Sequence record: PZ445511.1 | Source of the DNA: a phage | Direction: 5' to 3' (one strand) | DNA length: 64,000 bases | Part shown: positions 4,904 to 64,000 of the stretch, piece after piece | Layout of the letters: each line of letters starts with the position of its first letter | Numbering within the stretch: position 1 is the first letter of the stretch | Position numbers and translations under genes: made by a program | The notes under the pieces: model-generated | Databases searched by the model: none | What the model saw: the letters and a program-made list of their open reading frames with translations, nothing else | Told to the model about the DNA's origin: nothing

Positions 4904-4904
4904 T

Positions 4905-49789: not shown

Positions 49790-50110
49790 TTCTAGACTCC
49801 TAAGTTTCTAGGAAAACTCTCGTCAACTCAGGCGGTTTTCATTGTTCCTAGAAACTCTAGCAATAGGCGGTTAATACAGGGCGGTTATAGGGAGGGCGGT
49901 TATTTCTAGGAGTCATTTTTTGAAAACACATTTCTGGAGATTGCTATCGGATTTGCACATTATGTTTCTAGAAATTTATGGTCGGATTTGCACAATTGCC
50001 TAAGTTTTTAGGAACATATAATCTCCCGAAAATAGCAGCATTATTTCGGGCCGAAGGCCCATGATTGCCTGAGTTTTTAGAGCCACAGGAATTTTCACTT
50101 GTCAAGCTAT
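49790..50110 (+). repeat. short direct repeats (GGCGGTT x4; CT[AG]AGTTT[CT]TAG[AG] x5)
   Basis: seen directly in gene-free region upstream of the iteron array. Confidence 0.6.
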
Positions 50111-50546
50111 TTTGCCCCATTTTGCTAATAAAATTTCGCTTTATCTCCCCCAATCTCAATTCTAGCCAAAACATCCCGCATTATCCCCAAAAACGCAGCA
50201 AACCGGTGCTAAAGCACCATCACCGCTGCTCCTTCCGTAGTTACTCCCAAAATCTCATCGGATTCGCACTTCTCCCCAAACTCACACAATCACACACCCT
50301 CCAATCGAAGTCACAAAAATCTTGTCGGATTCGCACACCTTAACACTTGTCGGTTTTGCACATATTCTAGTAAATCCAGCTGGATTGCATCGCAGTTGCG
50401 GATTGCTGGAGTTTTTAGGAAAATTCATTGTCGGATTCGCACACTATAAAAATATTTGCCATCGGATTTGCACACTACCAAAAATTGTCGGATTCGCACA
50501 TGCACGCTGGCACGTAATCCGTGGGGGCAAATGTCGGATTTGCACA
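49947..50546 (+). repeat. iteron-like array: 9 direct copies of 13-bp TCGG(A/T)TT(T/C)GCACA
   Basis: copies start at 49947, 49982, 50258, 50325, 50350, 50431, 50462, 50488, 50534; irregular spacing; no ORF. Confidence 0.85.
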
Positions 50547-50569
50547 AAAGCGCAGGGCAATTTGCCCTG

Positions 50570-50720
50570 CCTGCCGAAATGCGAATGATAATGAGAATGA
50601 TTCTCTTTTGGGAAGTTGAATGATAATGATTCGCATTTGAGAAGTTGAATGCGAATGAGAACAGTTATCATTTGACTACCGGAATACGAATGAGTCGCAT
50701 AATGAGAATGATTTGCATTT
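50570..50720. repeat. AT-rich GAATGA(G/T)AATGA repeat block with partial palindromes
   Basis: gcgaatgataatgagaatgattc, gaatgataatgattcgcattt, cgaatgagtcgcataatgagaatgatttgcattt. Confidence 0.7.
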
Positions 50721-50752
50721 AGAAAGCGAAGTGAGAAACACTGTTATTTAAG

Positions 50753-50761
50753 TTATCCACA
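50753..50761 (+). promoter_or_regulatory. DnaA box (TTATCCACA, perfect)
   Basis: exact 9-mer; two TTATCAACA variants at 50815-50834. Confidence 0.6.
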
Positions 50762-50844
50762 GGTTTATTAACAGCACGATCTGACTTGACAAAATCCTAG
50801 TGATTTTGAGGCGTTATCAACAGACTTATCAACAGGTTATTCTA

Positions 50845-50860
50845 CTGTATATTTATACAG
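50845..50860. repeat. 16-bp palindrome CTGTATATTTATACAG (copy 1)
   Basis: identical copy at 54516-54531. Confidence 0.8.
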
Positions 50861-50893
50861 TATTACTGCGTAGTGAATAACTCTAATATAGCC

Positions 50894-50922
50894 CTAAAAC
50901 GCTCTGTAACTCATTCTAAGCG
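50894..50922 (+). repeat. 29-bp direct repeat CTAAAACGCTCTGTAAC..TTCTAAGCG (copy 1)
   Basis: 27/29 identical to 54943-54971. Confidence 0.8.
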
Positions 50923-51232
50923 ATTTAATTTTGGAGGAGGTATTTTAATAAGGGGAAATTTGAGGAAGGCCAGAAAAAGCGGGGCGCAACTATCGGCCCC
51001 GTTATTATTAGTCTGGTAGTCGATGTGTGATCTTTTCGCTTTCGCCGTAGGAGTCTACCAAATGTTGATAGTAACCATCGTTATCATAAATCACTTTATC
51101 ATAACGCCATCGCTCCTAGAATGAGAATGATTATCAATATCATTGTAAAGCCATTACCAAATCGTAAACGCTGGGAATGTTTCCCAGCGGTATTATTAGA
51201 TTTATGGCTTTGTGTTTTTCGCCACCAGCTAT

Positions 51233-51445
51233 TCACGGTTTTAAATTCTCTATAGTTAATTTTGCGCGAATAGTGATTCCATATAATTCGCCTCCCTTGT
51301 TTCTTACATCAGGTAGCCAGTCCCACAATTCAGGGTATCCGCTTAAAATTCCTAGCGATGCAAGATTAGCAATAAAACCGGCTATAGTAACCGCTTCCAG
51401 TGAAATAGTTACACGATTATTAATAACTAAAGTAAACTTTTTCAT
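51233..51445 (-). CDS. hypothetical protein (cassette gene 8)
   Basis: 70 aa; start overlaps upstream stop (ATGA). Confidence 0.4.
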   Translation of the reverse strand: MKKFTLVINNRVTISLEAVTIAGFIANLASLGILSGYPELWDWLPDVRNKGGELYGITIRAKLTIENLKP

Positions 51446-51786
51446 TGCGACACCTTTCGAAACGCTGTTTCGATACTTTCAGCGGTTGATTGAATATACG
51501 CGCCTTTCATAATCAGGCGCTCTGTACACACTTTGCGGAAAATGTCAATAAATTCATTTTCATTTTCCGCTATTAACGCTTCCCCCATAACCTGAACATC
51601 ACAAGACCCAAAAGTTAAAAATTGAAATGCTAGTTCACGGGCGACAACGGCAGAAATTTTATAATGTGCTTTGCCCTCATAGATATTAACCACGCCTTTA
51701 TAAACTGGTGAAAGCTGATTTAAATAGTTTGCTAATAATGCCGGACGGCAATTAGTTACAAATCGGTTGCCCTCGTAAATTACCAT
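51442..51786 (-). CDS. hypothetical protein (cassette gene 7)
   Basis: 114 aa. Confidence 0.5.
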   Translation of the reverse strand: MVIYEGNRFVTNCRPALLANYLNQLSPVYKGVVNIYEGKAHYKISAVVARELAFQFLTFGSCDVQVMGEALIAENENEFIDIFRKVCTERLIMKGAYIQSTAESIETAFRKVSQ

Positions 51787-51913
51787 CTGCCAACCTCCCT
51801 AGCAAATAGCCAAAACAAATCGAATAAACGCCTAACAGTGCAGGATCACTTTTAAAGTAGGTAGCAATAAAGCCACCAGCAGCACCGAGCAAAATAGAAA
51901 ATAAAGTTTTCAT
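51752..51913 (-). CDS. small membrane protein, 53 aa (cassette gene 6)
   Basis: hand-translated MKTLFSILLGAAGGFIATYF...; below ORF-track cutoff. Confidence 0.35.
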   Translation of the reverse strand: MKTLFSILLGAAGGFIATYFKSDPALLGVYSICFGYLLGRLADGNLRGQPICN

Positions 51914-52122
51914 AATACCCCACGAAACGCAGCGTAAAAGGTGGCAAAGTGTTTAACCGTTTCGGCTACCAAATTGCCGCGCTTGTCAAATTTCTTATCT
52001 GTAACACGGAAAGCGTTTTTGTTGCGTGCTACATATTCGATTTTACAATCTGGACGCTCGAACGTGTTAACATCCACCAGCTTAAAACCTTTGGAACGGG
52101 CAAGGGAAACATTCTTTAACAT
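51910..52122 (-). CDS. hypothetical basic protein (cassette gene 5)
   Basis: 70 aa. Confidence 0.45.
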   Translation of the reverse strand: MLKNVSLARSKGFKLVDVNTFERPDCKIEYVARNKNAFRVTDKKFDKRGNLVAETVKHFATFYAAFRGVL

Positions 52123-52124
52123 TT

Positions 52125-52274
52125 TTATTCCCCTTTACCAGTCATACAGCCTAACAAGTAAGAAAACCCCGCGATACCTGCTCCGATAATAACCACGTGA
52201 ACGCCGAAAGCTATTACAAACAGCGATAAAATAGCGCCCAAGATACTAGCCAGAATAGATCGAAAAATAACCAT
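52125..52274 (-). CDS. small membrane protein, 49 aa (cassette gene 4)
   Basis: hand-translated MVIFRSILASILGAILSLFVIAFGVHVVIIGAGIAGF...; TAGGAGG RBS. Confidence 0.4.
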   Translation of the reverse strand: MVIFRSILASILGAILSLFVIAFGVHVVIIGAGIAGFSYLLGCMTGKGE

Positions 52275-52381
52275 TTTAACGCCTCCTAGAAATTAGGGAA
52301 AATTTTCAGTCCACCGTTTCGGTGTAAAGGCATTATAACAAAAAAGGCCGCCGATTAGGGCGACCTTTACAAAACTTTACA

Positions 52382-52876
52382 TTAGACTATTTCTAATGCT
52401 TCCACACCGAAACAGCGTTTTAGTTCTTTCTGTAAAACGGCATATTCATCCCAACGGGAATTATCAGGAATATAAACAAGCTGTTTTAATCGATTTGCAT
52501 ATAATAACGCCTTGTTACCAATTATTTCCGCGCCACCGTGTTTAATAATTAATTTCATAACGGTATTAATAGGATCGCCGCCATTTACATAAATACCGGA
52601 TTTACTCAATTGATAATGATAAATACTCGCATAAACATTATCATTTTCAATCCATTCCCCTGTTTCTTCATCTTCTTCCCCATCACTACCGAAACGAGAA
52701 GCATTATCATATGCGTGTTCGTTTGCGAAAGCGTCCAGATCACAGCCAGCGGGAACAAAATGTTCCTCCGTCCAGCCTTCCCCACAATAGCCAGTGTGAC
52801 AATCAACTAAAACGATCATATCGTGTTTAGCTTCATTCACACTTTCTAGAGAAAAGCCATATTTTTCTTCTGACAT
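52382..52876 (-). CDS. hypothetical acidic protein (cassette gene 3)
   Basis: 164 aa, Asp/Glu-rich central segment. Confidence 0.55.
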   Translation of the reverse strand: MSEEKYGFSLESVNEAKHDMIVLVDCHTGYCGEGWTEEHFVPAGCDLDAFANEHAYDNASRFGSDGEEDEETGEWIENDNVYASIYHYQLSKSGIYVNGGDPINTVMKLIIKHGGAEIIGNKALLYANRLKQLVYIPDNSRWDEYAVLQKELKRCFGVEALEIV

Positions 52877-52889
52877 AACTAGACTCCTA

Positions 52890-53198
52890 TTAATTAGCAG
52901 GGAAATAAAGAGAATTTGCTACACTGTAAAATACTTTATTTAAGAAAATTACGTCATCACGGACTATTTCATCCATTCCATAATCCAGCAAAGTTTCGTC
53001 TACAAAAATACATAGCCAGCCATAACCACGATCAAAGAAAGCATGATAATTATTAGCGCTTTCTACATGTTCCCATAAAAAGGGACGGCCTTGTTTTTCC
53101 CATATAGGAATATTGCTTTGATCGTCCGAATAATTAACATGGGGGCTATTCGGCATTTTTTCGGCTAATTGCGTCAACATGATTTGATTCAGTTGCAT
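52890..53198 (-). CDS. hypothetical protein (cassette gene 2)
   Basis: 102 aa. Confidence 0.5.
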   Translation of the reverse strand: MQLNQIMLTQLAEKMPNSPHVNYSDDQSNIPIWEKQGRPFLWEHVESANNYHAFFDRGYGWLCIFVDETLLDYGMDEIVRDDVIFLNKVFYSVANSLYFPAN

Positions 53199-53264
53199 AA
53201 TAAGTAGTCTCCTAACAATTAACAGGGAAATAGTAAAGCGGGAAATAATCCCCGCTAGTAATTA

Positions 53265-54266
53265 TTACTCTGTTTCGGCGCTTTGGGTAAAGGTAGAAAT
53301 GTCAATGCCTTTTACCATTTCATCGATCATTTCAGCAATATTGAAACTCTGTACCATTTCCAGCATTGCCGCTTCCATTGCCGCGCCTGCTACCGCTTTC
53401 GCTTTCTGATTAGTCGGGGCGTACTGGTCAACCGCTACGCTTAACAGGTTAGCGATCACTACGCGACCAATCGGAGTATCAATATAACCTTTAATCATAA
53501 ACGGCGCTTTTTTCGCCGCTACTTTTGTGATTTGAGTCAGTGCAATTTTACCCGCTTCCAGTTTTGCAGCATTTACAACAGCGGATTTATTAGCAGCAAC
53601 GATAGAAGATACTTTAGTCATGATATTTCCTTTATTTTCAGTAGTTTGCGCATTTGCGCTTGAAGTTTGAGAGTTTACAGCCTGTTTTGTTACGTTGTCA
53701 ACTGGTTTTAGTGTAAATCCAGCATTTGCAACGTTTGATTCATTCCCATAACATAAATAATCGTCAGGGATCAACATGTTACCGCTAGCGCGTTCAAAAC
53801 ATAATACGCCAGTTGTTTCGATTGCGTCACTATCCGCACCTTTATAGCTTGACGATAATTCCCGCCAGATACTATTTAATAACGATCCGACACTATCCAG
53901 TCTGATATTATTTATTTTTGTTGCTGTTACCTGCTCTTTTTCTTGCACGTTATATAATCGCGCAATGTAACCACTATGAGACTCACTATAACCAACAATG
54001 ATAAAATCAATATCAGTTCCCCGACTATTACGGAAAATGTGATAATCACGGTTGAAAATTACTAGCGCCCTTGTCTGGTCTAGTAATAGCGTGAAATCAT
54101 CGACTGAATAATGAGTATCATTATTATCTAAAATTTCATCGTGAATCTTTTCAACCATTGCCGCCGTATGTTGTACGCTTGCCGCACTACTACCATCTAG
54201 CAGGTTGCGCAAACTACCCTTAATAATAGTGGCGTTTGCTGGTACTGCAATTCTTACAGTAGACAT
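53265..54266 (-). CDS. hypothetical protein (cassette gene 1)
   Basis: 333 aa; Ala/Lys-rich C-terminal third; no recognisable motif. Confidence 0.6.
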   Translation of the reverse strand: MSTVRIAVPANATIIKGSLRNLLDGSSAASVQHTAAMVEKIHDEILDNNDTHYSVDDFTLLLDQTRALVIFNRDYHIFRNSRGTDIDFIIVGYSESHSGYIARLYNVQEKEQVTATKINNIRLDSVGSLLNSIWRELSSSYKGADSDAIETTGVLCFERASGNMLIPDDYLCYGNESNVANAGFTLKPVDNVTKQAVNSQTSSANAQTTENKGNIMTKVSSIVAANKSAVVNAAKLEAGKIALTQITKVAAKKAPFMIKGYIDTPIGRVVIANLLSVAVDQYAPTNQKAKAVAGAAMEAAMLEMVQSFNIAEMIDEMVKGIDISTFTQSAETE

Positions 54267-54454
54267 TTCTTTGTCTCCCTCGTTAATCAGTGAGTGAATG
54301 ATATAGATAATTGTTCGCTAGGGGCAAGAAAAAAGAAAAGGTTTTTTATTCCTTGCCTACTGCCCGTTTTTATGATAATCGCGCGTTTTCTATTTCTAGC
54401 TCTCTGTAAGCGTACACAAGGCTTTATTATAATAAGGGTCACACTGAGAAAACC

Positions 54455-54474
54455 GTCTAGAATCGATTCTAGAC
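54455..54474. promoter_or_regulatory. 20-bp perfect palindrome GTCTAGAATCGATTCTAGAC (operator-like)
   Basis: exact inverted repeat in divergent control region. Confidence 0.7.
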
Positions 54475-54515
54475 GCCTTAAAATCGACATCCTTATAATA
54501 TGCTACCAGTTTACC

Positions 54516-54531
54516 CTGTATATTTATACAG
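54516..54531. repeat. 16-bp palindrome CTGTATATTTATACAG (copy 2)
   Basis: identical to 50845-50860. Confidence 0.8.
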
Positions 54532-54553
54532 TAGGATAACCTGTATATAAGTC

Positions 54554-54611
54554 TGTGGATAAGTCCTCATATAGTCGCCTATTACGTCAAGTTATTTTGT
54601 GCTGTGGATAA
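54554..54611 (-). promoter_or_regulatory. two perfect DnaA boxes (TGTGGATAA at 54554-54562 and 54603-54611)
   Basis: exact reverse-complement 9-mers 41 bp apart; third 8/9 box at 54888-54896. Confidence 0.6.
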
Positions 54612-54942
54612 CTTTGGGGATAAGTTAAATGATAGTGGTTCTCACTTAGCCCGATAGTTTCTCATAGTTATTATTTCCCATTAATTTATGTGTATATTAT
54701 ATATTATGAAATAGTTAGTTGGCTAATAGGATTTTCCGTGATTAATAGTCTGCTAATGATAACGCATGTTTCAATCCACCAGCGTGATTATCATCCTAGC
54801 AACTATTAGAGTGCTAATGACCTGATACACGTCCAGACTTATTTGTCAATGAAAAATAACAGCAGAAAATACTTTTTTGAAAAATCAAGTGGATAACTCA
54901 TTAAATTTCATTTTTGCTTTTTGTATAAGTTATTAACAGGGT

Positions 54943-54971
54943 CTAAAACGCTCTGTAACGCGTTCTAAGCG
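54943..54971 (+). repeat. 29-bp direct repeat (copy 2)
   Basis: 27/29 identical to 50894-50922. Confidence 0.8.
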
Positions 54972-55374
54972 CCTTTGATGAAAAGCTATCCCATCATAAG
55001 GGGAGGTGTCCGAAAACCTCACCACGAGGATTTTAGATTTTGTCAAGTAGGCAAGAGCAGAAATAAATGAAAAAATTACTTGCTAAACTGCTTATTTGTG
55101 TGTTATTCGTGCGCCCGTTTCATTAAATTTAGTGCGCCGCTGGACGTGGTGCGGTGGCGTTTGTCTTTACGTTTCTTTACAAAAATAAGGTTGCGCCCTT
55201 CTCGGTATTCTCCTATTATTTATCACGTAGGGCGGCAATGACGAACTACACGGCGGGGATAACAGCGATTGACAGTCTGTTTGACCTTTCAAAACCCTGC
55301 CATGCTCTTTAAAAATTAGGGAACATCTTAAAGCCTATCGGCGGTAAACTTAGATATTATAAGGAATCGACGAT

Positions 55375-55584
55375 ATGAAACAAACGCTTTTGATCACTGG
55401 CAAGCCTATCAAGTCACTTGATAGCAGAACAAAAAATTTGTTGACAGTAGCGCAACGATCTGTAAAATACAGATTCAAGCAATACAAGAAAGGCAAGCAA
55501 CAAGGGCTGGAAATGGTGTGGCGTAATATAATGATTGATTTATATAACTCATATCAAATAGAAAAAAGTTTAAAAAACGCTTGA
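55375..55584 (+). CDS. hypothetical small basic protein (may be spurious)
   Basis: 69 aa; contains internal TTGACA-16-TAAAAT promoter-like motif. Confidence 0.3.
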   Translation: MKQTLLITGKPIKSLDSRTKNLLTVAQRSVKYRFKQYKKGKQQGLEMVWRNIMIDLYNSYQIEKSLKNA

Positions 55585-55609
55585 CACGCTAGCCGATAGG
55601 TTTTAAGAT
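55581..55609 (+). promoter_or_regulatory. putative promoter (TTGACA-17-TAAGAT)
   Basis: consensus -35 with weaker -10. Confidence 0.35.
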
Positions 55610-55815
55610 GTTCCCTAGTTTTTAAAGAGTGATAACTTGATAAAATTTGACGGTCGGCACTTACCATAATGTGCCCCGCCCCCTAACTGGGATATAGCGG
55701 CCCGCGTGGAGTTCTTTAAATTTATTATATTGGCTAGCGGATTATAATCTAATAGCGTTTCAAAGTATCGAGGCGCTATTGTGGAATAATCCCCCAATAA
55801 ACCGGAGTATTAAAA

Positions 55816-56067
55816 ATGCAAAACGTTATCACCGCACCGAAAGTAGGTCAATCCGTTTTTATTCCTTTCGTTACTAAAACGGATGAATTAACTGGAAAAG
55901 CTGAACGTATTAAAGGTGCGGCGCTTGATCCCTTTGATAAAATTGAAGCGGTATACGCGGAAACGGAACGCAGTAACAACGGCAAGCCAATTTATAACGT
56001 TCGCGTTAAATCTGGCGACGTTGTAAAAATCATTCAGAAAGATGATAAATGGCAAGCTATTAGCTAA
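55816..56067 (+). CDS. hypothetical protein
   Basis: 83 aa. Confidence 0.5.
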   Translation: MQNVITAPKVGQSVFIPFVTKTDELTGKAERIKGAALDPFDKIEAVYAETERSNNGKPIYNVRVKSGDVVKIIQKDDKWQAIS

Positions 56068-56166
56068 TTAGTGTTACTTTTATATTCCCCTGAAATATGG
56101 GGAATATATGGATTAACATTAGTTAATCATAATCCCTTAATTAATAATTGAATGGAGTATTAAATT

Positions 56167-56583
56167 ATGTCTAACGTTAAAACCGAAAAAACCGCAAAAT
56201 TCTCTTGGAACGAAGAAAACACCGAAAAGGCTGTTTCTATGTATTCTGAAATGGTCGCTAAAAGCGGAATTGAATTTGCTAACAGTGACGGCTTGAAAGA
56301 AATCGCCGCCGCCGTTGGTGCTGCTAGTCCGGTGTCTGTACGTTCTAAATTGACCAGTGCAAAAGCCTACCAGAAAAGCGACAAGCCGCGTAAAGTTGGC
56401 GGCGGTAGCTCTGTCCGTAAAGCTCACTATGTGCGCGTCATTGCTAAACATGCCATTGATAGCGGCATTGTAAAAGACGCTGACGATCTGGCAAGTCTGG
56501 AAAGTGCTAAACTGGAAACACTGGACGCCGTAGCGCAATTATTAGGCGTAGCGGAGGAAGTAAAACAGGCCGCAGGTGAATAA
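56167..56583 (+). CDS. A2: pre-early A2-like protein
   Basis: 138 aa immediately upstream of A1-like gene; assignment by size and position only. Confidence 0.4.
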   Translation: MSNVKTEKTAKFSWNEENTEKAVSMYSEMVAKSGIEFANSDGLKEIAAAVGAASPVSVRSKLTSAKAYQKSDKPRKVGGGSSVRKAHYVRVIAKHAIDSGIVKDADDLASLESAKLETLDAVAQLLGVAEEVKQAAGE

Positions 56584-56633
56584 ATTTTAATTAGCGGGGA
56601 ATATTCCCCGCTAACCCTTAAAGGAGAATAATC

Positions 56634-56861
56634 TTGATCTTTTATCCTAGCGAAGCGTTTATTTTAGGTTTATTTATTATTGCCGCTATATTTATATTTA
56701 ATTACGGCAAATATATAATTTCTATTATCGGCATTAATTCAGCTTATGCCGCTGATATGTTTAAACGTCAAGCTAATAAACAAAAATATCTGGCGATTAT
56801 ATTTTTAACGCTGGCTATTAGTTGCGGTTTTAGTTCTAGTCTTATGCCAATTCTAGAATAA
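56634..56861 (+). CDS. small membrane protein
   Basis: 75 aa. Confidence 0.4.
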   Translation: MIFYPSEAFILGLFIIAAIFIFNYGKYIISIIGINSAYAADMFKRQANKQKYLAIIFLTLAISCGFSSSLMPILE

Positions 56862-56969
56862 TATTGCAAATTATAACGCCTTTTAAATTGTCCTCACTTC
56901 AGGCAAGGCGTTATATTTGGCAATATTGCCAGTATTAATATTTATCCCTTTAATGGAGTTAATTAACTT

Positions 56970-58634
56970 ATGAATATTTCCGCAGAAAAACAAGCTCAAA
57001 TTTTGAAAATGGCCGCAGATTTTAACTTCTACGGTAAGCGTTTACGCGCTACTAAATTGGAAGTTTGCGACGATATTTCAAAAGCTGTTTATGATACGCC
57101 GAAACATTCAACCGCAATTTGTGATTGGCTGGAAGCAAACAAGCCAGCGAAACCGAAAGCGGCAAAAGCTGAAAAGGCGATTAAAAATGATGATCGCCCC
57201 GAAGCGGCGGGAATTGTTTCTAGTACCGTTGAACAATGGGAAGTTAAATCCGGTCGCCGTTTTATTCTAACGTCGATTCAAAATAATACTTTCCCTCATA
57301 AAAACTTTTTAGCAAGTCTAGAAAAATTCGCTGAATATTGCGGCGCTGAATTGCTGATTAGTAAATTCATTTATAATAAAAATGGATTCCAGAACGGGGA
57401 AGGGGCAAACGGTATTAAATACGATCCCGCATTTGATAAATATGTTTGTGATAAAAACGTATTTTTAAATAACCGCCGCTTTGCTTTCATGGCTGAAATT
57501 AACGTTTTGCCAACGGCAGATTATCCGCTTTCAGGATTCGCAGAAACTGCCACCGCTTTAAATATTGAAGGTCTGGCAATTGGTCACGCAAAAATTACCG
57601 CCGAAAGCGTGCCAGCTTTAAAAGGTGAAGTAGTGCGCCGTATGTATTCAACCGGAACGGCTACACTTAAAAACTATATTCAGCAGAAAGCAGGTCAAAA
57701 AGCTGAGGCTTTACATAATTACGGCGCTTTGCTGGTAGAATTTGACGACGACGGCGAATTTTTCGTGCGCCAGCTTGAAACAATGGACGAAAGCGGAATG
57801 TTCTATGATCTGAATATTTGCGCCACTCCTAGCGGTTGCAAAGAAATTACCGGACACATTTTAGGCTTACAATATGGCGATATTCACGCCGAAAAATTAG
57901 ATGATGAATGCGCCGTCGCTTCATGGGCTAGTGAAAATTCATTGCTTGATATTCTTAAACCGAAATATCAGTTTATTCATGATGTGCATGATTTTACATC
58001 GCGTAACCATCACAACCGCGCTAGTGGTGTATTCCTTGCTAAACAGTACGCCGCAGGACGTGATAAAGTTATTGATGATCTCATTGATACCGGTCGCGTG
58101 TTGGAATCTATGGAACGTGAATTTAGTCAAACAATCATTGTGGAATCCAACCATGATTTAGCTCTTTCACGCTGGCTTGATGATCGTAACGCAAACATTA
58201 AGGACGATCCCGCAAACGCCGAGCTATACCACAGCCTAAACGCTGCGATTTACGCCGCAATTGCAAAACAAGATGATACCTTTAACGTATTGGATTACGC
58301 GCTTAGAAACGTTGCAGGTTGCGAATTTAACGCTATTTTCCTGACTACTGACCAGTCATTTAAAATCGCTGGCATTGAATGTGGCGTACATGGTCACAAC
58401 GGCATTAATGGCAGTCGGGGCAATCCTAAACAGTTTAAAAAGTTGGGACGCCTTAACACTGGTCACACTCACACGGCTAGCATATACGGCGGCGTTTATA
58501 CCGCTGGCGTTGCTGGTAGTCTCGATATGGGTTACAACGTGGGCGCGTCAAGCTGGACGCAAACGCATTTAATTACCTATGCAAACGGGCAACGTACTTT
58601 GATTGATTTCAAAAACGGTAAATTCTTTGCATAA
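56970..58634 (+). CDS. A1: pre-early A1-like metallophosphoesterase
   Basis: 554 aa; phosphoesterase motifs GDIHAE, HDVHD, HTHT; size fits my recollection of T5 A1. Confidence 0.6.
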   Translation: MNISAEKQAQILKMAADFNFYGKRLRATKLEVCDDISKAVYDTPKHSTAICDWLEANKPAKPKAAKAEKAIKNDDRPEAAGIVSSTVEQWEVKSGRRFILTSIQNNTFPHKNFLASLEKFAEYCGAELLISKFIYNKNGFQNGEGANGIKYDPAFDKYVCDKNVFLNNRRFAFMAEINVLPTADYPLSGFAETATALNIEGLAIGHAKITAESVPALKGEVVRRMYSTGTATLKNYIQQKAGQKAEALHNYGALLVEFDDDGEFFVRQLETMDESGMFYDLNICATPSGCKEITGHILGLQYGDIHAEKLDDECAVASWASENSLLDILKPKYQFIHDVHDFTSRNHHNRASGVFLAKQYAAGRDKVIDDLIDTGRVLESMEREFSQTIIVESNHDLALSRWLDDRNANIKDDPANAELYHSLNAAIYAAIAKQDDTFNVLDYALRNVAGCEFNAIFLTTDQSFKIAGIECGVHGHNGINGSRGNPKQFKKLGRLNTGHTHTASIYGGVYTAGVAGSLDMGYNVGASSWTQTHLITYANGQRTLIDFKNGKFFA

Positions 58635-58686
58635 TTAAATTTAATCGGCGGTTGAAATATACCGCCATTAATAAAAGGTTTATTAA

Positions 58687-58965
58687 ATGGCTAGTAAAAT
58701 TAATATATCTATCCCTGATAGCAATTGTTTAGAAGATATTGCATGGTCTGAAATGTCTTTTGATAGTTGCGTTTATTTAGTTACCCGTGGAATGTACGCG
58801 GGAATGTACGCCGTATGGGATAGTAATATTGGCGAAAATATGATCTTTTTCGGAAAAGATTCTATTCAGGTAATGACAGGCGATTACCTTAATCAAGAAA
58901 GGAAAGACGGCGACGAAACATATTTTCGTAAAACTGATTTATCTTTAAATGTATTTTTTCAATAA
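58687..58965 (+). CDS. hypothetical protein
   Basis: 92 aa. Confidence 0.5.
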   Translation: MASKINISIPDSNCLEDIAWSEMSFDSCVYLVTRGMYAGMYAVWDSNIGENMIFFGKDSIQVMTGDYLNQERKDGDETYFRKTDLSLNVFFQ

Positions 58966-58997
58966 ATCCCGTAATTAAATAATCTGGAGTCATAAAC

Positions 58998-59390
58998 ATG
59001 AAAAACCAAAACATTCCTTTTGATCGTGCTACTTCTTCCATCGTTCTAGTTTATTCTAATGGCGAACGTTATCACGTCGAAGCGGGGCAAGTTAATTTCG
59101 ATTTGCTGAATTATAACGACGCTTTGCAGGTTACTACCTTTGCTTATGATACCGGCAAAGTGGCAAGCCATACGAAAGCAAAAGGCGTTTACGCTGATAC
59201 TTTGACAGTGCAAACAATCATTATTGATGCGCTTAAATCCGGTCTAGCGTTTGCGGTTGTTAAGCCGTGTCCGGTCTGCAATCCCGAAGCTAGCGCAATG
59301 GTTTATACTTGCGCGGGTATCCGTTCTAGCGTACATGGTGAAGATCTTTCCTTTATCGGTGACGCGCTAGCGTATGGCCTCACTAACTAA
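58998..59390 (+). CDS. hypothetical protein
   Basis: 130 aa. Confidence 0.5.
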   Translation: MKNQNIPFDRATSSIVLVYSNGERYHVEAGQVNFDLLNYNDALQVTTFAYDTGKVASHTKAKGVYADTLTVQTIIIDALKSGLAFAVVKPCPVCNPEASAMVYTCAGIRSSVHGEDLSFIGDALAYGLTN

Positions 59391-59477
59391 TAGTTAATTG
59401 AACATTGCCAGCTAATCTAATATAATTAGCTGGCAAGATTGAATTAACCTAAATCCCTTAAATGGAGAATGTAACAA

Positions 59478-60212
59478 ATGAATCAAGTCAACATGAATAT
59501 TACCCGCACTTTCCCGCATATTTCCCGCGTTATGATTTGGGATTTAGACGGGACAATCATTAATTCATTCCATCGTGTAGCGCCTTGCTTTGATGATAAC
59601 GGGAATTTAGATTTAAATAAGTATTCCCGCGAAGCCTGCAAACATGAATTAATTATGCAGGATTCCTTATTACCATTGGTTGAATATATGCGCCAATGTA
59701 TGAATGATCCCAATACCTTAAACCTTATTTGTACCGCTCGCTTAATGGGTAAATCTGATTATTATTTCTTGCGTAAACAAAGTCTAAGAGGGCGCGGAAA
59801 TAGTAATATTCGCGTATTTTCCCGCGATACATTACATAAATACTTTGATGCAAATAAGGTTAGTGAAATATATCACAGCAAAGACGCAGTATATAAAAGC
59901 TATTACTTTGAACTGTTTAAACAGCTATATCCTAACGCTGATTTTACGATGATTGATGATCATAAAGGCGTATTATCAGCAGCAGCAAACGCAGGATTTA
60001 AAACGCTGGACGCTCAAGCTGTTAACGATATCCTATCAATTGGGGTAACATTGATTGGTGAAACCTTTATTGATGAATCGCTTGATGATGATAACGATTA
60101 TCAATTCCTAGCCGAACGTTTAAAAATGTGTTGGGAAGGTATGACCGAGGAAGAACGCGCAGAATATAGTACCACTCCGCAACAGTTCATCGACAAATTA
60201 AAAGTTGCCTAA
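59478..60212 (+). CDS. dmp: HAD-superfamily phosphatase, 5'-deoxyribonucleotidase-like
   Basis: 244 aa; HAD motif IWDLDGTI; size fits T5 Dmp. Confidence 0.6.
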   Translation: MNQVNMNITRTFPHISRVMIWDLDGTIINSFHRVAPCFDDNGNLDLNKYSREACKHELIMQDSLLPLVEYMRQCMNDPNTLNLICTARLMGKSDYYFLRKQSLRGRGNSNIRVFSRDTLHKYFDANKVSEIYHSKDAVYKSYYFELFKQLYPNADFTMIDDHKGVLSAAANAGFKTLDAQAVNDILSIGVTLIGETFIDESLDDDNDYQFLAERLKMCWEGMTEEERAEYSTTPQQFIDKLKVA

Positions 60213-60375
60213 CAATTAAAAATAAAATAGTCACACTGTGTAATGATAACATGGTGTGACTATTAGCTTGCTAAGTACCGGGGCGGTAATGAGACTCATT
60301 CTCATCTGTGGAACCTCTGGGCACACCTTCATGTGTAATCTTATGAAATTTCGAGAATTGGTAATTAGCGCTAAC

Positions 60376-60621
60376 TTAGGAAGAACACCGGTCTACTGGC
60401 TTGTCTCCTGATTCTGACATACGAAATCTCCTCCGCGACGCCCGAGATCCATCCGACCACTCTCGCTCAAACTCCGCACGTTTCTCCGCAAACTTCCGCT
60501 CCCTTTCCGAAAGCTCCCGCGATACTCCCGCAATATATTCACGATGCTTATTAATCGCCCCGAGTGTTCCGAAGATTCCCGCAAGTACCCCGATAATGAA
60601 GATAGCTACAAAGCTAAACAT
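60376..60621 (-). CDS. small membrane protein
   Basis: 81 aa with N-terminal TM. Confidence 0.45.
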   Translation of the reverse strand: MFSFVAIFIIGVLAGIFGTLGAINKHREYIAGVSRELSERERKFAEKRAEFEREWSDGSRASRRRFRMSESGDKPVDRCSS

Positions 60622-60808
60622 CTAATTCCCTCTCAAGTTGGTGAATACGTGCCCGATCATTACGTTGGGAGTCCAGTAACTTATCCATATTAATGTTTAG
60701 TTGGGTGACTTTATCCTCTAGCCGCTGTATACGATTACGATGTGACGTCATATATCCAACAATCCAGACAAGCCATACTACAAGTGTAATAAGTCCTAGC
60801 CAATCCAT
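60614..60808 (-). CDS. small membrane protein
   Basis: 64 aa with N-terminal TM. Confidence 0.45.
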   Translation of the reverse strand: MDWLGLITLVVWLVWIVGYMTSHRNRIQRLEDKVTQLNINMDKLLDSQRNDRARIHQLERELDV

Positions 60809-60912
60809 TATTTATCTCCCCGCAGCTTACGTTCGATATGAGCTAAGTGGTTATCTAAAATGCACTGCCCGATAATTACCACAACTAGTAAAGCAATAAT
60901 TACTACTTCCAT
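60809..60912 (-). CDS. small membrane protein (34 aa)
   Basis: hand-translated MEVVIIALLVVVIIGQ...; abuts downstream gene. Confidence 0.3.
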
Positions 60913-61376
60913 TATAACCACCCCGCCATAGCTGCTAACCAAAAGAGTACAAAGATAAAGAATAACACAGTCCCGAATCCGAAACTATTTATCCAACTTT
61001 CGTACACTTCCCCGCGTCTGTTCTTTCTTCTGTTGTCGCCTGACATCTCTTTGCTTCTCCTGTAAGTCCGGTATTTGGAATACCCTAGCAAATTGCACGA
61101 ACCATTATGACTGTCCCGATAAGATCCATTACTTCGTCGAAGCCGGATTCTTCTAGTAAGAAGGATGTTCCCATCACGTCTTCTATTGTATCTTCTATGA
61201 CGTCTTGAATGATTTCATCAATTGCATCATGTATTGCTTTTTAGTCCTGGGATCTATTTCAAAGTTAACAGGTTCCTGAAAGGACTTTTCTTCATCTTGC
61301 ATTGTGTTTGCTACCTGTACCTCATCCCAGAAATAAAAATTTTTGTTTACTTCGAGATCTTTTTACTTTATACTAA

Positions 61377-61643
61377 TTACAAGTGACCAGATTGTTCTAG
61401 TTTAAATTTGCAATCGCCATATTTGAGATCAAACTGTGACAGATCCCACCACCCAAACTTAGTGCGTAACTGAGTTTTAGGGAATCGATAGCCCACAGTA
61501 CGTGCTTCTCGAATATCTAAAGCATAGTGTTCTTCACCAACATGACCATAAGACTTCACGTATGCCTTACAGAACGGCTTAGGAGCTGGTACACAACCAG
61601 TCAACACTACTGCTGCAACTACGATAGCTAGTAACTTTTTCAT
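61377..61643 (-). CDS. llp: Llp-like lipoprotein (candidate receptor-blocking superinfection-exclusion protein)
   Basis: 88 aa; signal peptide with lipobox LTGC; divergent from and adjacent to RBP gene. Confidence 0.55.
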   Translation of the reverse strand: MKKLLAIVVAAVVLTGCVPAPKPFCKAYVKSYGHVGEEHYALDIREARTVGYRFPKTQLRTKFGWWDLSQFDLKYGDCKFKLEQSGHL

Positions 61644-61726
61644 AATCGTTCCTCTGTTTAATTTATAAATATATTATAGCAAAATAGAGGGATCTAAGCA
61701 AATACATTTTTAAAGAAGGAGATTGT

Positions 61727-63508
61727 ATGAGTTTTTTCGCAGGAAAATTTAGTGATGGTAAAACTGTATTATCTCTAAACGCTGCTAATGGTGGTGATAT
61801 AAATCAGCACTACTCTCCAAATACTAATAGTATCTTCCACTCAGATATGCCATTTGTCCTAGTTGATGGGACTTACGAGGCTGCTCTAGGTGATGCAGGT
61901 AATGGGTATTTTGTTACTCAGATGCCTTGGGATATTATAAACATTAAATCCAATGATCCTGGTAGAGTTATATTAACTGCTATTGAGATAAATGGTACTC
62001 ATAGGGGTTTCCTTAATGGTACACAATCTCAGGTTGGCCAGTTCTTATCATTCTTTGAAGACCAACCACGTGCTGGTGCTGAATTATCTGTAACATCTGC
62101 TTTTGCTATCGGTGATAGTTTAGCTCATGGTACCTATATCTATAATGGTGGTCTTGGCCATGAGGAATCTATTGCTCGGCAAGGTTCTGGAGGCAGTTTA
62201 CTACAGTCCTCTGGTTTCCAGATCTTTAGACCTGGTGGTGTTTCTGCTGGTGAAGCCATTGCCAGAGCCTGGAGTCTTATGGGTTTTCCAACTGGTGTCT
62301 CTACTGTTCCTTTAGATGGTGGTAACGCAGATTATTGGGATCCTAACTGGCAGGCGCCTATTGGTTCTGCTGGTAGAGGCCATGATTGGTTTTATGTTTG
62401 TAGTTCTAATATTCGTGGCTTCGCAGGTAAAAAAGGCGTACTACCAGATAACGTAAACATTAACTACCAATCCCCCTCCTTTCCTACTAAAGTATACGTT
62501 TGTAGGGGTTCTACAACTAATATGGCTGCGCAAGCCACTAGAAAGGTGTATGTACAGGACTGGTACAACGTTACGCCAACTAAGGTTATTTGGTATGTAC
62601 TAAATCTGCGCTATTCTAATGGTAGTATGGGAGTTTCTGGTAATCCATTTACCGGTTCAGATATCCTAATATCTCCATCTAACTTTACTATTAAAGGTGT
62701 TAGCCTACCAAATACAGGCTATAAATTTATCAACCAGAATGCTTTCGGAAACTTAGGCTATCGCCCTGATATGGAGTATGTTGGTAATAACGCTGCGTAT
62801 ACCGGAGTTTTTGGTGATAATACTGCACGATGTGAATTTATCGGCTCTAGTAATGGTGGGTTGTGGTCGCCCGTTAACTATGGGGGTGCAGCTTCCCAAA
62901 TTAGCCTATATAAATTTGGTGTAGGTAAACAATGGTATGTAGATACTAATACCAACTCCATCGGTAATGAACATGGACCTGTGTGGAGTCCTAGTACTGT
63001 ACCCCTCAGGTTATTTCCAGGCAACGTTGCAAGTACTTATGTTGGTGATGATATAACTCCTTCCTACCCTGGTGCTGGTGACTTCTATACACCTTTGGCC
63101 ACTGTTTGGTTAGGATTACCTAATGCTCACTCTACCGTTATATTAACTACTGAAGTTATTATGGGTAATCTTAATACTGCTGGAATGCCTGTGCGTACTT
63201 ACGGCGGTAGCGCTTGGCAGGTACAAGGTAGACGTCAACAAAGTTATACAGCTGGTGATGGTGTATTCCATCAGATTCTTACTCTGCCACCTGGATATCT
63301 AGTACCTTATCACAGTACAACTTCCTATAGTTATACACAAACTTGGGCTAGTAGGCCAGATGAGTTTGCTTTCCGTAGGAACGGATATATTTATACTATT
63401 AAAAACCTTGGTAATGGCAACGTTGAATTGGGTGTTATCATTCACGCTGCGGAAGCGGCGGCTGTTTTCTTGCCAAGACTACGTGTAACAGTTCAACGCC
63501 TAACCTAA
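61727..63508 (+). CDS. oad: receptor-binding tail protein, pb5-like
   Basis: 593 aa; N-terminus MSFFAGK and C-terminus QRLT match my recollection of T5 pb5; Gly/Asn-rich. Confidence 0.6.
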
Positions 63509-63518
63509 AGGAGGATAT

Positions 63519-64000
63519 ATGGCAAATGATGTATTAGTTCCCGATCTCATGTCTCCTGAGGGCATGGATGTTATTGAAGCCTATTTACAGTGCGGTAGTG
63601 ATGTTCCTGCCGCCGCTCGTAGTCTTGGAATGTCCGAGATTGCATTTCGTGATATAATGAATCGTGGGGAAGTTAAAAACTATCTCAACGATATCTTTAT
63701 GGAAAGCGGCTTCCGTAATCGTGACCGCTTATTCGGAGTTCTTGACGAAGTTATCAAGCGTAAGCTGGAAGAACTTGAAGAAACTGGCATGGGTTCTGAC
63801 CAGGATATCATGGATATTCTCTGGAAGGCGCACAAGATGAAAATGGAAGAAATGAAAATGATGGTAGAACTGGAGAAAGTGAAGGCAGCAGCCCGTACTC
63901 CGGCTAACCAGACTAACATTCAGAATAATATTATTGCTGGAAGTGGTGACGAAAACTATATGAATCTTATTACCGCTCTAGCAGGAGGAGGTAAGAGATA
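63519..64000 (+). CDS. HTH-containing protein, 3'-truncated by window end
   Basis: ATG 63519 with AGGAGGA RBS; open to window edge; N-terminal helix-turn-helix-like segment. Confidence 0.5.

What the first reader, a model, noticed from the sequence alone, without database searches (positions are those of the whole stretch)
54455..55615. Palindromic operator-like sites and an inverted-repeat-flanked small ORF in the divergent control region
A 20-bp perfect palindrome GTCTAGAATCGATTCTAGAC lies upstream of the minus-strand cassette, and 23-bp inverted repeats (22/23 complementary) flank the 69-aa ORF 55375..55584, which also has an internal promoter-like motif. This points to dense regulation, or a miniature inverted-repeat element, at the point where the two divergent gene sets start.
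Basis: seen in the sequence. Interest (0 to 1): 0.35.

Follow-up and report, generated by a model that had tools for sequence, protein, structure and literature searches.

The report
T5-type pre-early promoter and repeat region
The flagged palindrome, inverted repeats and small ORF are the already described control region of a T5-like phage's first-injected DNA: two strong early promoters, the cell-division-inhibitor gene hdi and DnaA-box repeats, not a mobile element.

Summary
The palindrome is 22 bp (54454-54475). The inverted repeat is 38 nt with 36/38 matches (55305-55342 / 55592-55629).

The window is a T5-like Salmonella phage (Epseptimavirus-type). Its terminal-repeat (pre-early) region lies in reverse orientation to the T5 map.

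How the flagged features map onto T5:
- The stretch is the orthologue of T5 "Repeat Regions 1+2".
- The inverted repeat is T5 IRA'/IRA.
- The 69-aa ORF is the homologue of T5.008/Hdi, an FtsZ-targeting host division inhibitor.
- The "internal promoter" is P-H22.
- The right arm is the spacer, -10 and start region of P-D/E20.
- The palindrome is a lineage-specific allele of IRB'. Its dyad is imperfect in most relatives, so an operator role is unsupported.

It carries four DnaA-type boxes and mirrors the injection-stop candidate at 50726-50860.

MITE and invertible-switch readings fail.

One addition of my own: the arms co-vary across Demerecviridae, and most mismatches are G·U on the hdi-sense strand. 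This suggests a long-range RNA stem enclosing hdi, an inference at about 45%.

Verdict: already known, low interest.

The parts
54298..54327 (-). Promoter of the leftward (minus-strand) pre-early cassette, TTGCCC-N18-TATCAT. Orthologue of the T5 promoter upstream of gene 011 (P11).
   Evidence: Promoter scan. Alignment with the annotated T5 promoter 6411-6489. P11 was validated in T5 by primer extension (PMC7472727).
54454..54475 (.). 22-bp perfect palindrome CGTCTAGAATCGATTCTAGACG. It is a lineage-specific allele of T5 inverted repeat B' (IRB'). On the minus strand it reads as a weak terminator-like hairpin followed by GTTTTCT.
   Evidence: Position equals T5 IRB' 6184-6209. Exact in 10 records, about 7 distinct phages. 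Imperfect in the others.
54470..54499 (+). Promoter-like site TAGACG-N18-TATAAT whose -35 is the right half of the palindrome. Candidate only; the TATAAT is present in this clade and in T5 but not in most Epseptimavirus relatives.
54516..54650 (.). IRD-spacer-IRC element (T5 Repeat Region 2) with two pairs of DnaA-type boxes 3 bp apart: 54542-54550 TGTATATAA, 54554-54562 TGTGGATAA, 54603-54611 TGTGGATAA, 54615-54623 TGGGGATAA. It is an inverted copy of 50726-50860.
   Evidence: T5 annotation. Davison bioRxiv 10.1101/866236.
50726..50860 (.). Distal partner of that element: IRC'/IRD' of T5 Repeat Region 3, the candidate injection-stop signal. It has DnaA-type boxes on the opposite strand (50753, 50814, 50826).
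   Evidence: Davison.
54943..54971 (.). IRB homologue, CTAAAACGCTCTGTAACGCGTTCTAAGCG. It also forms a 93% direct repeat with 50894-50922.
55191..55219 (+). Candidate promoter for the hdi mRNA, TTGCGC-N17-TATTAT. The hexamers are conserved while the spacer diverges among relatives. Predicted only.
   Evidence: Read from the alignment and the sequence. Below the scan threshold.
55305..55342 (.). Left arm of the inverted repeat (T5 IRA'). The 24-25-nt core at 55318-55342 is conserved family-wide. The outer 13 nt pair only in this clade.
55375..55584 (+). hdi homologue (T5.008), 69 aa, with RBS AAGGA at 55361-55365.
   Evidence: 75% identity to T5.008 over residues 1-61. phrog_4718 at E 3e-37. tblastn matches in 514 phage records. 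Most variation is at third codon positions, 37 against 19 and 15. Function of T5 Hdi from PMC10714956.
55441..55468 (+). P-H22 homologue, TTGACA-N16-TAAAAT, inside hdi.
   Evidence: T5 annotation. S114 annotation. Primer extension in T5 (PMC7472727).
55458..55474 (.). Small dyad ATCTGTA-AAA-TACAGAT centred on the -10 of P-H22. Relatives show compensatory synonymous changes (TCT/AGA to TCG/CGA).
   Evidence: One position is unpaired in 12 of 33 sequences, so support is moderate.
55581..55609 (+). P-D/E20 homologue, TTGACA-N17-TAAGAT. The -35 overlaps the hdi stop codon. The spacer, -10 and start region lie inside the right arm.
   Evidence: T5 annotation. Same layout in distant lineages.
55592..55629 (.). 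Right arm of the inverted repeat (T5 IRA). It begins 7 nt after the hdi stop codon.

Best explanation
What it is. The flagged stretch is the orthologue of the non-coding "Repeat Regions 1 and 2" and gene T5.008 (hdi) of bacteriophage T5. It lies in the terminal repeat, the first DNA injected.

How it works (established for T5; homology shown here). On entry, host sigma-70 RNA polymerase fires strong pre-early promoters. P-H22 lies inside hdi, and P-D/E20 overlaps the hdi stop codon and the right repeat arm. Both drive the rightward operon T5.007-A2-A1-...-dmp. P11 (54298-54327) drives the leftward cassette. The 69-aa ORF is a real gene, the homologue of Hdi, which blocks host cell division through FtsZ.

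The inverted repeat (T5 IRA'/IRA). It brackets hdi, so every full-length hdi transcript must start upstream of the left arm and carries both arms. My inference, at about 45%, is that the arms act in RNA: they form a 25-38-bp long-range stem that closes the hdi cistron. Such a stem is the kind of duplex RNase III cuts, or one that otherwise sets the stability of this toxic gene's message. It would leave transcripts from P-H22 and P-D/E20 untouched.

The 22-bp palindrome. It is a clade-specific perfect version of T5 IRB' and probably has no operator role of its own.

The neighbouring DnaA-box element (54516-54650). It is the mirror copy of the injection-stop candidate. According to Davison's untested hypothesis, it helps tether the first-step DNA through DnaA.
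For: Identity of the region:
- blastn maps window 50000-60255 collinearly, in reverse, onto T5 10219-83.
- The T5 records annotate IRA and IRA' at the corresponding positions. They also annotate T5.008 with P-H22 inside it and P-D/E20 over IRA.
- Salmonella phage S114 is annotated the same way.
- 529 phage records match the 1.5-kb region.

The gene:
- The ORF is intact in 13 of the first 14 loci, including Yersinia phiR2-01 and Klebsiella Sugarlandvirus. It was intact in all but one (smaug) of the loci fetched later.
- Variation is highest at third codon positions.
- It matches phrog_4718.
- Hdi function and toxicity are documented in PMC10714956 and 10.64898/2026.04.02.716235.

The promoters:
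- 11/12 and 10/12 consensus matches.
- P-H22 and P11 are seen by primer extension in T5 (PMC7472727).

The inverted repeat is selected as a pair:
- It is present in essentially every relative.
- The arms change together. T5 has GGGTAC where this clade has GGGAAC. TrudiGerster has TAATAT in both arms. phiR2-01 and L044 have 1-nt insertions in both arms.
- The arm sequences are quite different but still matched in Sugarlandvirus (27/28), Eos (29/32) and My1 (26/27 plus one indel).

Lean towards RNA:
- In 33 distinct T5/Epseptimavirus sequences the core helix is 95.4% paired on the hdi-sense strand. All 7 one-sided changes are G·U or U·G there, which would be A·C on the other strand.
- The sense strand has more pairs in 21 sequences and the antisense strand in none.
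- Outside the arms the same alignment shows no such mutational bias: C>T plus A>G is 44, G>A plus T>C is 41, and transversions outnumber transitions 111 to 85.
- Indels inside the left arm's -10 copy in Sugarlandvirus and My1 would spoil a promoter but only bulge a stem.
- The left arm never has a -35.
- The sense RNA folds to -107.7 kcal/mol (z -9.7) with an uninterrupted stem. The antisense RNA folds to -96.8 kcal/mol (z -6.0).
Against: - No transcript data were available. The upstream promoter needed to make an RNA carrying both arms is only predicted (55191-55219).
- The strand asymmetry weakens when all lineages are pooled: 12 sense-strand wobbles, 5 antisense-strand wobbles and 2 transversions. 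The one-sided binomial p on transitions is about 0.07.
- The right arm is independently constrained as a promoter core, and gene conversion between arms could also keep them alike.
- The outer 13 nt of the 38-nt repeat pair only in this clade.
- RNase III cleavage is pure inference. No literature on T5 and RNase III was found.
- Hdi is dispensable for T5 growth in the laboratory. Davison reports that DT57C lacks T5p008-011. So whatever the repeat does is not essential.
Confidence: 0.8

Rival explanations
1. The two arms work in DNA as twin binding sites. They would bind RNA polymerase modified by A1, the A2 dimer or another pre-early protein. Binding would loop out or shut off P-H22 and P-D/E20 when pre-early transcription is switched off.
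For: The right arm covers the spacer, -10 and start of P-D/E20. Both arms keep the same -10-like hexamer in most lineages. A1 associates with RNA polymerase and dampens pre-early promoters. A2 is a DNA-binding dimer.
Against: Arm sequences differ widely between lineages while A1 and A2 are conserved. Indels fall in the left arm in Sugarlandvirus and My1. One-sided changes are wobble-compatible on one strand, which a protein site does not predict. No binding data exist.
Confidence: 0.2
2. The inverted repeat has no function of its own. It is an old inverted duplication of the promoter core that intramolecular gene conversion keeps alike.
For: The arms change in concert, including whole-segment replacements. 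The right arm has an obvious function without needing a partner.
Against: The repeat has persisted across two subfamilies and several genera with a constant relation to hdi: the right arm starts 6-7 nt after the stop codon of hdi, or of the ORF that follows hdi in My1. The left arm shows no decay, although 25-nt arms are poor conversion substrates. Mismatches are almost all transitions, against a 57% transversion background.
Confidence: 0.15
3. The 22-bp palindrome is an operator for a dimeric regulator controlling the divergent promoters.
For: It has perfect dyad symmetry. Its right half supplies a -35-like TAGACG for a TATAAT 18 bp downstream. A near-identical dyad, GCTTAGAATCGATTCTAGAGC, turns up in a duplicated segment of phiR2-01.
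Against: The dyad is perfect only in about 7 distinct close relatives, which make up 10 database records. The left half varies freely in Tennessee, smaug, beppo, polluks, T5 and rutana, while only the right half is conserved. It lies about 130 bp from P11. In T5 this site pairs instead with a distant partner, IRB.
Confidence: 0.08
4. The palindrome is a leftward (minus-strand) intrinsic terminator that insulates P11 and its cassette from antisense read-through.
For: It is the only terminator-like hit in the region: a 9-bp stem, a 4-nt loop, then GTTTTCT on the minus strand.
Against: The stem is AT-rich and the U tract short. One such hit is what shuffles give (mean 1.4). The hairpin is not conserved.
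Confidence: 0.07
5. The repeat-flanked ORF is a miniature inverted-repeat transposable element, or an invertible DNA switch.
For: It has terminal inverted repeats around a short segment.
Against: There is a single copy in 64 kb and no target-site duplication (CCATG against TGATA). It sits at the same locus in every relative, with no empty sites apart from larger deletions. It encloses a conserved protein gene and a promoter. hdi has the same orientation relative to A2 in all annotated loci. No recombinase or transposase gene is annotated or recognisable in the flanking genes examined.
Confidence: 0.01

Closest known systems
Bacteriophage T5 Repeat Region 1: IRA/IRA' with promoters P-D/E20 and P-H22 and gene T5.008 (hdi)
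   Same: The position in the terminal repeat, between the A2-side operon and the gene-011 cassette, is the same. The 24-25-nt arm core is the same apart from one co-varying base. Both promoters match, with the same hexamers. The ORF is 75% identical to T5.008. The right arm begins 7 nt after the stop codon in both.
   Different: The arms here extend to 38 nt through an extra 13-nt outer segment found only in this clade. [quoted passage not shown] The T5.009 reading frame is closed by a stop codon.
T5 Repeat Region 2/3: IRB', IRC-spacer-IRD, its mirror IRD'-spacer-IRC', and the proposed DnaA-box injection-stop signal (Davison, bioRxiv 10.1101/866236)
   Same: A 131-135-bp element carries two pairs of DnaA-type boxes 3 bp apart, and an inverted second copy lies about 3.7 kb away next to the terminal-repeat boundary repeats.
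   Different: IRB' is a perfect self-palindrome here, whereas in T5 it is one half of a long-range pair with IRB. The functional role of any of these elements is hypothesis, not experiment.
RNase III processing stems of phage early polycistronic RNAs, such as the T7 early region and lambda sib (from established knowledge; a works-like comparison only)
   Same: A conserved double-stranded RNA segment of at least two helical turns flanks a cistron in an early phage transcript made by host polymerase (fold; pairing statistics).
   Different: Here the stem would be long-range, with a 249-nt loop holding a whole gene, and nearly perfect. The T7 sites are local, irregular hairpins. No cleavage has been shown. 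One arm doubles as a promoter core.
Miniature inverted-repeat transposable elements
   Same: Short terminal inverted repeats around a few hundred base pairs.
   Different: It is single-copy, has a fixed locus and no target-site duplication, and carries a conserved coding gene and promoters.

Membership tests
T5-type pre-early control region (Repeat Regions 1/2 with hdi) | Lies in the terminal repeat between the dmp-A1-A2-T5.007 operon and the oppositely transcribed gene-011 cassette | tested here: met
   Collinear blastn to T5 10219-83. PHROG hits for A1, A2, T5.007 and the gene-011 homologue. Relatives annotate the region as terminal repeat.
T5-type pre-early control region (Repeat Regions 1/2 with hdi) | IRA/IRA' inverted repeat homologous to T5 4682-4706 / 4950-4974 | tested here: met
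   The core GGGAACATCTTAAAGCCTATCGGC compares with T5 GGGTACATCTTAAAGCCTATCGGC, and both arms carry it.
T5-type pre-early control region (Repeat Regions 1/2 with hdi) | T5.008/hdi homologue between the arms, with P-H22 inside it and P-D/E20 over the downstream arm | tested here: met
T5-type pre-early control region (Repeat Regions 1/2 with hdi) | Promoter activity early in infection | not testable with these tools
   Shown for T5 P-H22 and P11 by primer extension (PMC7472727). Only sequence homology is shown here.
T5 IRC-spacer-IRD / DnaA-box element | An element of about 131 bp with paired DnaA or DnaA* boxes 3 bp apart, and an inverted second copy near the injection-stop region | tested here: met
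   Boxes at 54542-54562 and 54603-54623. Inverted copy at 50726-50860 (70 nt at 76% and 54 nt at 85%).
T5 IRC-spacer-IRD / DnaA-box element | Binding of DnaA and a role in stopping injection | not testable with these tools
   This is a hypothesis of Davison and is untested anywhere, to my knowledge.
Hdi (T5.008) protein family | Sequence homology over the full length, including the QQGL-M-W-N-M motif | tested here: met
   Alignment A2 shows 18 invariant columns. phrog_4718 at E 3e-37.
Hdi (T5.008) protein family | Inhibition of FtsZ ring formation / host division | not testable with these tools
   Shown for T5 Hdi (PMC10714956). Inferred here from 75% identity.
Miniature inverted-repeat transposable element | Target-site duplication flanking the terminal inverted repeats | tested here: not met
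   The flanks are CCATG and TGATA.
Miniature inverted-repeat transposable element | Multiple dispersed copies and presence/absence polymorphism | tested here: not met
   The arm motif occurs at two places only, which are the two arms. The locus is the same in 59 loci.
Miniature inverted-repeat transposable element | Non-coding interior | tested here: not met
   The interior is a conserved protein gene.
Repressor operator (dyad-symmetric site at a promoter) | Dyad symmetry conserved among relatives that share the regulator | tested here: not met
   The dyad is perfect in 10 records only. The left half is variable and the right half conserved.
Repressor operator (dyad-symmetric site at a promoter) | Overlap with the core of a demonstrated promoter | tested here: not met
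   The P11 hexamers at 54298-54327 lie 127 bp or more away. The only overlap is with an unvalidated TAGACG-N18-TATAAT.
Intrinsic terminator | G+C-rich hairpin followed by a U tract, conserved in relatives | tested here: inconclusive
   A weak minus-strand match (4 G-C pairs of 9, then GTTTTCT). The hit count equals the shuffle expectation. It is not conserved.
RNase III-type double-stranded RNA processing site | At least about 20 bp of continuous RNA duplex on the transcribed strand, maintained by compensatory and wobble changes | tested here: met
   The MFE of the sense RNA contains the full stem. 95.4% of cells are paired, with 3 compensatory pairs and 7 of 7 one-sided changes as G·U. A control shows no mutational bias. 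The signal is weaker when distant lineages are pooled, 12:5.
RNase III-type double-stranded RNA processing site | A transcript spanning both arms, and rnc-dependent cleavage | not testable with these tools
   Only a predicted upstream promoter at 55191-55219. No Rfam family matches.

The most novel reading that the evidence does not exclude
The IRA'/IRA inverted repeat was catalogued in T5 twenty years ago as a DNA repeat of unknown function. It may really be an RNA element conserved across Demerecviridae: a 25-38-bp long-range stem that closes the toxic hdi cistron in read-through pre-early transcripts. One strand of the stem doubles as the core of the strong promoter P-D/E20. The stem would be cut or stabilised, for example by RNase III. 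Hdi output would then be set separately from the A2-A1 operon that is driven from inside and just after the loop.
Probability: 0.4. Interest if true: 0.45.

Novelty: already known. Interest (0 to 1): 0.22.

Why it matters
The finding itself places the window. It is the first-step-transfer control region of a T5-like phage, and every flagged feature now carries its established T5 name: IRA/IRA', IRB', P-H22, P-D/E20 and hdi. That is useful for annotation, because most database relatives label these genes "hypothetical" and leave the repeats unmarked.

The one point that goes beyond the literature I could read concerns IRA/IRA'. The repeat is kept as a matched pair even where its sequence has been replaced. 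In the best-sampled clade its mismatches are G·U on the hdi-sense strand.

If that reflects an RNA stem, it would explain a long-unexplained conserved repeat. It would also give a simple, testable handle on how T5 limits a toxic pre-early protein. It is relevant too to groups who could not clone or delete this locus.

Tried and rejected
- Rfam scan of 50000-57000 at E<=1. The only hit was a sub-threshold STnc320 match outside the region, so no known RNA family is present.
- Exact search for the 22-bp palindrome in IMG/VR. Zero hits, so it is rare outside the GenBank clade found.
- Left arm as a second, leftward promoter. Rejected: no -35 in any of 7 lineages, and there are indels in its -10 copy in Sugarlandvirus and My1.
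- MITE and invertible switch. Rejected on copy number, target-site duplication, fixed orientation and coding content.
- T5's long-range IRB/IRB' pairing as the explanation for the palindrome. It holds in T5 and NBEco002 (28/30 and 16/17). It is weak in several relatives and absent here.
- Mutational strand bias as the cause of the G·U pattern. Not supported by the flanking columns of the same alignment.
- T5.009 as a conserved gene overlapping the left arm. The frame is closed by TAA at 55310-55312 here.
- Davison's 2015 review (10.1080/21597081.2015.1086500). It could not be read because it is not held.
- Literature search for T5 plus RNase III. It found nothing.
Full report
**Observation**

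- GTCTAGAATCGATTCTAGAC sits at 54455-54474. With its flanking C/G it is a 22-bp perfect palindrome, 54454-54475.
- It is the second-longest perfect palindrome in the window. The longest is 24 bp at 56591-56614 and all others are 14 bp or shorter. Eight of 200 block shuffles reached 22 bp.
- The inverted repeat around ORF 55375-55584 is longer than reported: 38 nt, 36/38 complementary, arms 55305-55342 and 55592-55629.
- Its 20-nt core occurs nowhere else in the 64 kb, against a chance expectation of 0.01.
- The internal promoter-like motif is TTGACA-N16-TAAAAT at 55441-55468. A second consensus promoter, TTGACA-N17-TAAGAT at 55581-55609, overlaps the right arm.

**Where we are**

The 1.5-kb region matches 529 phage records, all T5-like (Demerecviridae). 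The best matches are Salmonella phages of the Epseptimavirus type, up to 99.4% identical.

A blastn against the first 11 kb of T5 shows that window 50000-60255 is collinear, in reverse orientation, with T5 10219-83. That stretch is the terminal repeat, which is the first-step-transfer, pre-early DNA.

PHROG matches identify the neighbours:
- A1 (56970-58634);
- A2 (56167-56583);
- T5.007 (55816-56067);
- the gene-011 homologue (53265-54266, minus strand).

**Mapping to described T5 features**

The Hangzhou T5 record annotates inverted repeats A and A' at 4682-4706 and 4950-4974. It also annotates B and B', C and D, and putative pre-early promoters. The Moscow and Paris-Orsay records annotate gene T5.008 at 4715-4918, promoter P-H22 inside it and P-D/E20 over repeat A.

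Direct alignment and extraction of the T5 feature sequences give these equivalences:
- the window's 38-nt repeat is IRA'/IRA;
- the ORF is T5.008;
- the internal motif is P-H22;
- the second promoter is P-D/E20, whose spacer, -10 and start region are the right arm itself.

Salmonella phage S114 carries the same annotation by homology.

T5.008 is now named Hdi. It is a toxic small protein that blocks host division through FtsZ and is dispensable in the laboratory (PMC10714956; bioRxiv 10.64898/2026.04.02.716235). The same preprint describes P-H22, P-D/E20 and the gene-011 promoter as experimentally characterised. Primer extension showed P-H22 and P11 to be pre-early (PMC7472727).

The leftward promoter here is TTGCCC-N18-TATCAT at 54298-54327. 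It is homologous to the T5 gene-011 promoter.

**The ORF is a real gene**

- It is intact in 13 of the first 14 loci examined. These include Yersinia phiR2-01 (43% identity) and Klebsiella Sugarlandvirus (about 40%).
- It was intact in all but one (smaug) of the loci fetched later.
- tblastn finds it in 514 records.
- The protein alignment has 18 invariant columns.
- Variable columns fall mostly at third codon positions: 37, against 19 and 15.

Positions 54516-54650 are T5's IRD-spacer-IRC element. It has two pairs of DnaA-type boxes 3 bp apart: 54542-54550 with 54554-54562, and 54603-54611 with 54615-54623.

The element is an inverted copy of 50726-50860, which is the IRD'-spacer-IRC' element beside the terminal-repeat boundary repeats. 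Davison proposes that these boxes tether the injected DNA through membrane-bound DnaA and form the injection-stop signal. That is hypothesis, not experiment.

**The palindrome**

It lies exactly where T5 has inverted repeat B'.

Evidence that the perfect dyad is a clade-specific state:
- The exact sequence with its context occurs in 10 records, about 7 distinct phages, and in no IMG/VR contig.
- In Tennessee, smaug, beppo, polluks, TrudiGerster, rutana and T5 the right half (CG-TTCTAG-CGCC/CCGC-TTAAA) is kept. The left half varies, so the dyad is imperfect or absent.
- T5's B' instead pairs with a distant partner B (28/30). That long-range pairing is weak or lost in many relatives, including this window.
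- A near-identical dyad appears in a duplicated segment of phiR2-01, so this allele moves around.

The palindrome is at least 127 bp from the P11 hexamers. On the minus strand it reads as a weak terminator, but one such hit is what shuffles give.

I conclude that the perfect palindrome is a clade-specific state of IRB', without evidence for an operator.

**The inverted repeat as a conserved pair**

A 24-25-nt core is present in essentially all relatives.

The arms change together:
- GGGTAC in T5-type phages against GGGAAC in this type;
- a -10 of TAATAT, with different downstream sequence, in both arms of TrudiGerster;
- one-base insertions in both arms of phiR2-01 and L044.

In more distant lineages the arm sequence is largely replaced yet still matched:
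- Sugarlandvirus, 27/28;
- Eos, 29/32;
- Pectobacterium phage My1, of another subfamily, 26/27 plus one indel. There the repeat encloses hdi and one further small ORF.

In every lineage the right arm follows a consensus TTGACA by 4-5 nt and supplies the spacer and -10 of the promoter for the T5.007-A2-A1 operon. The left arm never has a -35.

The right arm always starts 6-7 nt after the stop codon of the enclosed gene.

**DNA or RNA?**

I aligned 33 distinct sequences of the T5/Epseptimavirus group (A3) and counted pairs for the hdi-sense strand.
- The core helix is 95.4% paired.
- Three pairs have changes on both sides.
- All seven one-sided changes are G·U or U·G on this strand, which would be A·C on the other.
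- The sense strand has more pairs in 21 sequences and the antisense strand in none.

In the columns outside the arms the two kinds of transition are balanced, 44 against 41, and transversions outnumber transitions, 111 against 85. A mutational strand bias therefore does not explain the pattern.

The sense RNA folds into an uninterrupted stem at -107.7 kcal/mol (z -9.7). The antisense RNA folds to -96.8 kcal/mol (z -6.0).

Indels in the left arm's -10 copy in Sugarlandvirus and My1 fit a bulged stem better than a second promoter.

Against this:
- Pooling all lineages gives 12 sense-strand wobbles, 5 antisense-strand wobbles and 2 transversions. That is only suggestive.
- Gene conversion could also keep the arms alike.
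- The right arm has its own promoter constraint.

There is no promoter between the left arm and the hdi start, which are 32 nt apart. Any full-length hdi mRNA must therefore start upstream and carry both arms.

A candidate promoter, TTGCGC-N17-TATTAT at 55191-55219, has conserved hexamers and a diverging spacer.

My best reading, at about 45%, is a long-range RNA stem that closes the hdi cistron. Such a stem is a natural RNase III substrate or stability element. Transcripts from P-H22 and P-D/E20 would lack the left arm and escape it. This is inference only; I found no literature on it.

**Smaller feature**

The -10 of P-H22 sits in the loop of a small dyad, ATCTGTA-AAA-TACAGAT at 55458-55474. 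Otherwise identical relatives switch TCT/AGA to TCG/CGA, both synonymous, which keeps the pairing. T5 has a G·T there. One position is unpaired in 12 of 33 sequences, so the support is moderate.

**Rejected readings**

- MITE: one copy, no target-site duplication, a fixed locus and a coding interior.
- Invertible switch: constant orientation in all annotated loci, and no recombinase gene annotated or recognisable in the flanking genes examined.
- Known RNA family: none in Rfam.

**Verdict**

The operator and MITE ideas are not supported.

The locus is the orthologue of a region already described in T5 and its relatives, so novelty is "already known" and interest is low. The possible RNA role of IRA/IRA' is the only part worth an experiment.

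Noticed in passing
window 56591-56614: A 24-bp perfect palindrome, TTAGCGGGGAATATTCCCCGCTAA, lies immediately after the A2 homologue. This is the position of T5 'palindrome B', and it is the longest palindrome in the window. It may be a terminator between A2 and the next gene.
   Followed up: no
window 60255-64000: After dmp (T5 coordinate 83 maps to 60255) the window runs straight into receptor-blocking and receptor-binding protein genes. The physical genome end is therefore near 60340, and the source record is a collapsed or permuted assembly with one copy of the terminal repeat.
   Followed up: partly
window 55293-55317, and the same position in L011, L020, L061, L062, L010: CTCTTTAAAAAT, just outside the left arm, is conserved in every lineage, including My1, Eos and Sugarlandvirus. 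This holds even where the arm sequence itself has been replaced. It is unexplained.
   Followed up: partly
window 50894-50922 / 54943-54971 and 50941-50967 / 54425-54451: Two direct repeats sit next to the two DnaA-box elements: 29 nt at 93% identity and 27 nt at 74%. Each DnaA element therefore comes with similar neighbours. The first of these is the IRB homologue.
   Followed up: no
window 54888-54896 (-): An extra DnaA-type box, TTATCCACT, is conserved in relatives. In Tequintavirus relatives (AKFV33, saus111K, KPP2018) it is paired with an inverted TTATCCACT about 25 bp upstream.
   Followed up: no
window 50590-50729: Three copies of a 29-nt unit, AATGAGAATGATTCTC..., lie just beside the distal DnaA-box element. 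They correspond in position to the direct repeats of T5 Repeat Region 3, the injection-stop candidate.
   Followed up: no
L018 (Salmonella phage smaug) 2738-2779: hdi is frameshifted in smaug (MKQTLLITGKPIK*). This fits with Hdi being dispensable.
   Followed up: no
window 55154-55312 and 55310-55312: The T5.009 reading frame, which overlaps IRA' in T5, is closed by TAA here. A 52-aa GTG-start ORF ends at that stop and has only a weak PHROG hit (E 2e-7). Gene 009 does not look conserved as annotated in T5.
   Followed up: partly
whole window: Apart from the 24-bp and 22-bp palindromes, the longest perfect palindrome in 64 kb is 14 bp. Block shuffles usually reach 16 bp or more. This may reflect avoidance of palindromes or restriction sites.
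   Followed up: no
L008, L009, L014, L016, L020: Several relatives carry an insertion of about 155-190 bp with an extra small ORF between the left arm and hdi. In My1 an extra ORF lies between hdi and the right arm. The repeat therefore brackets a variable cargo, not hdi alone.
   Followed up: partly
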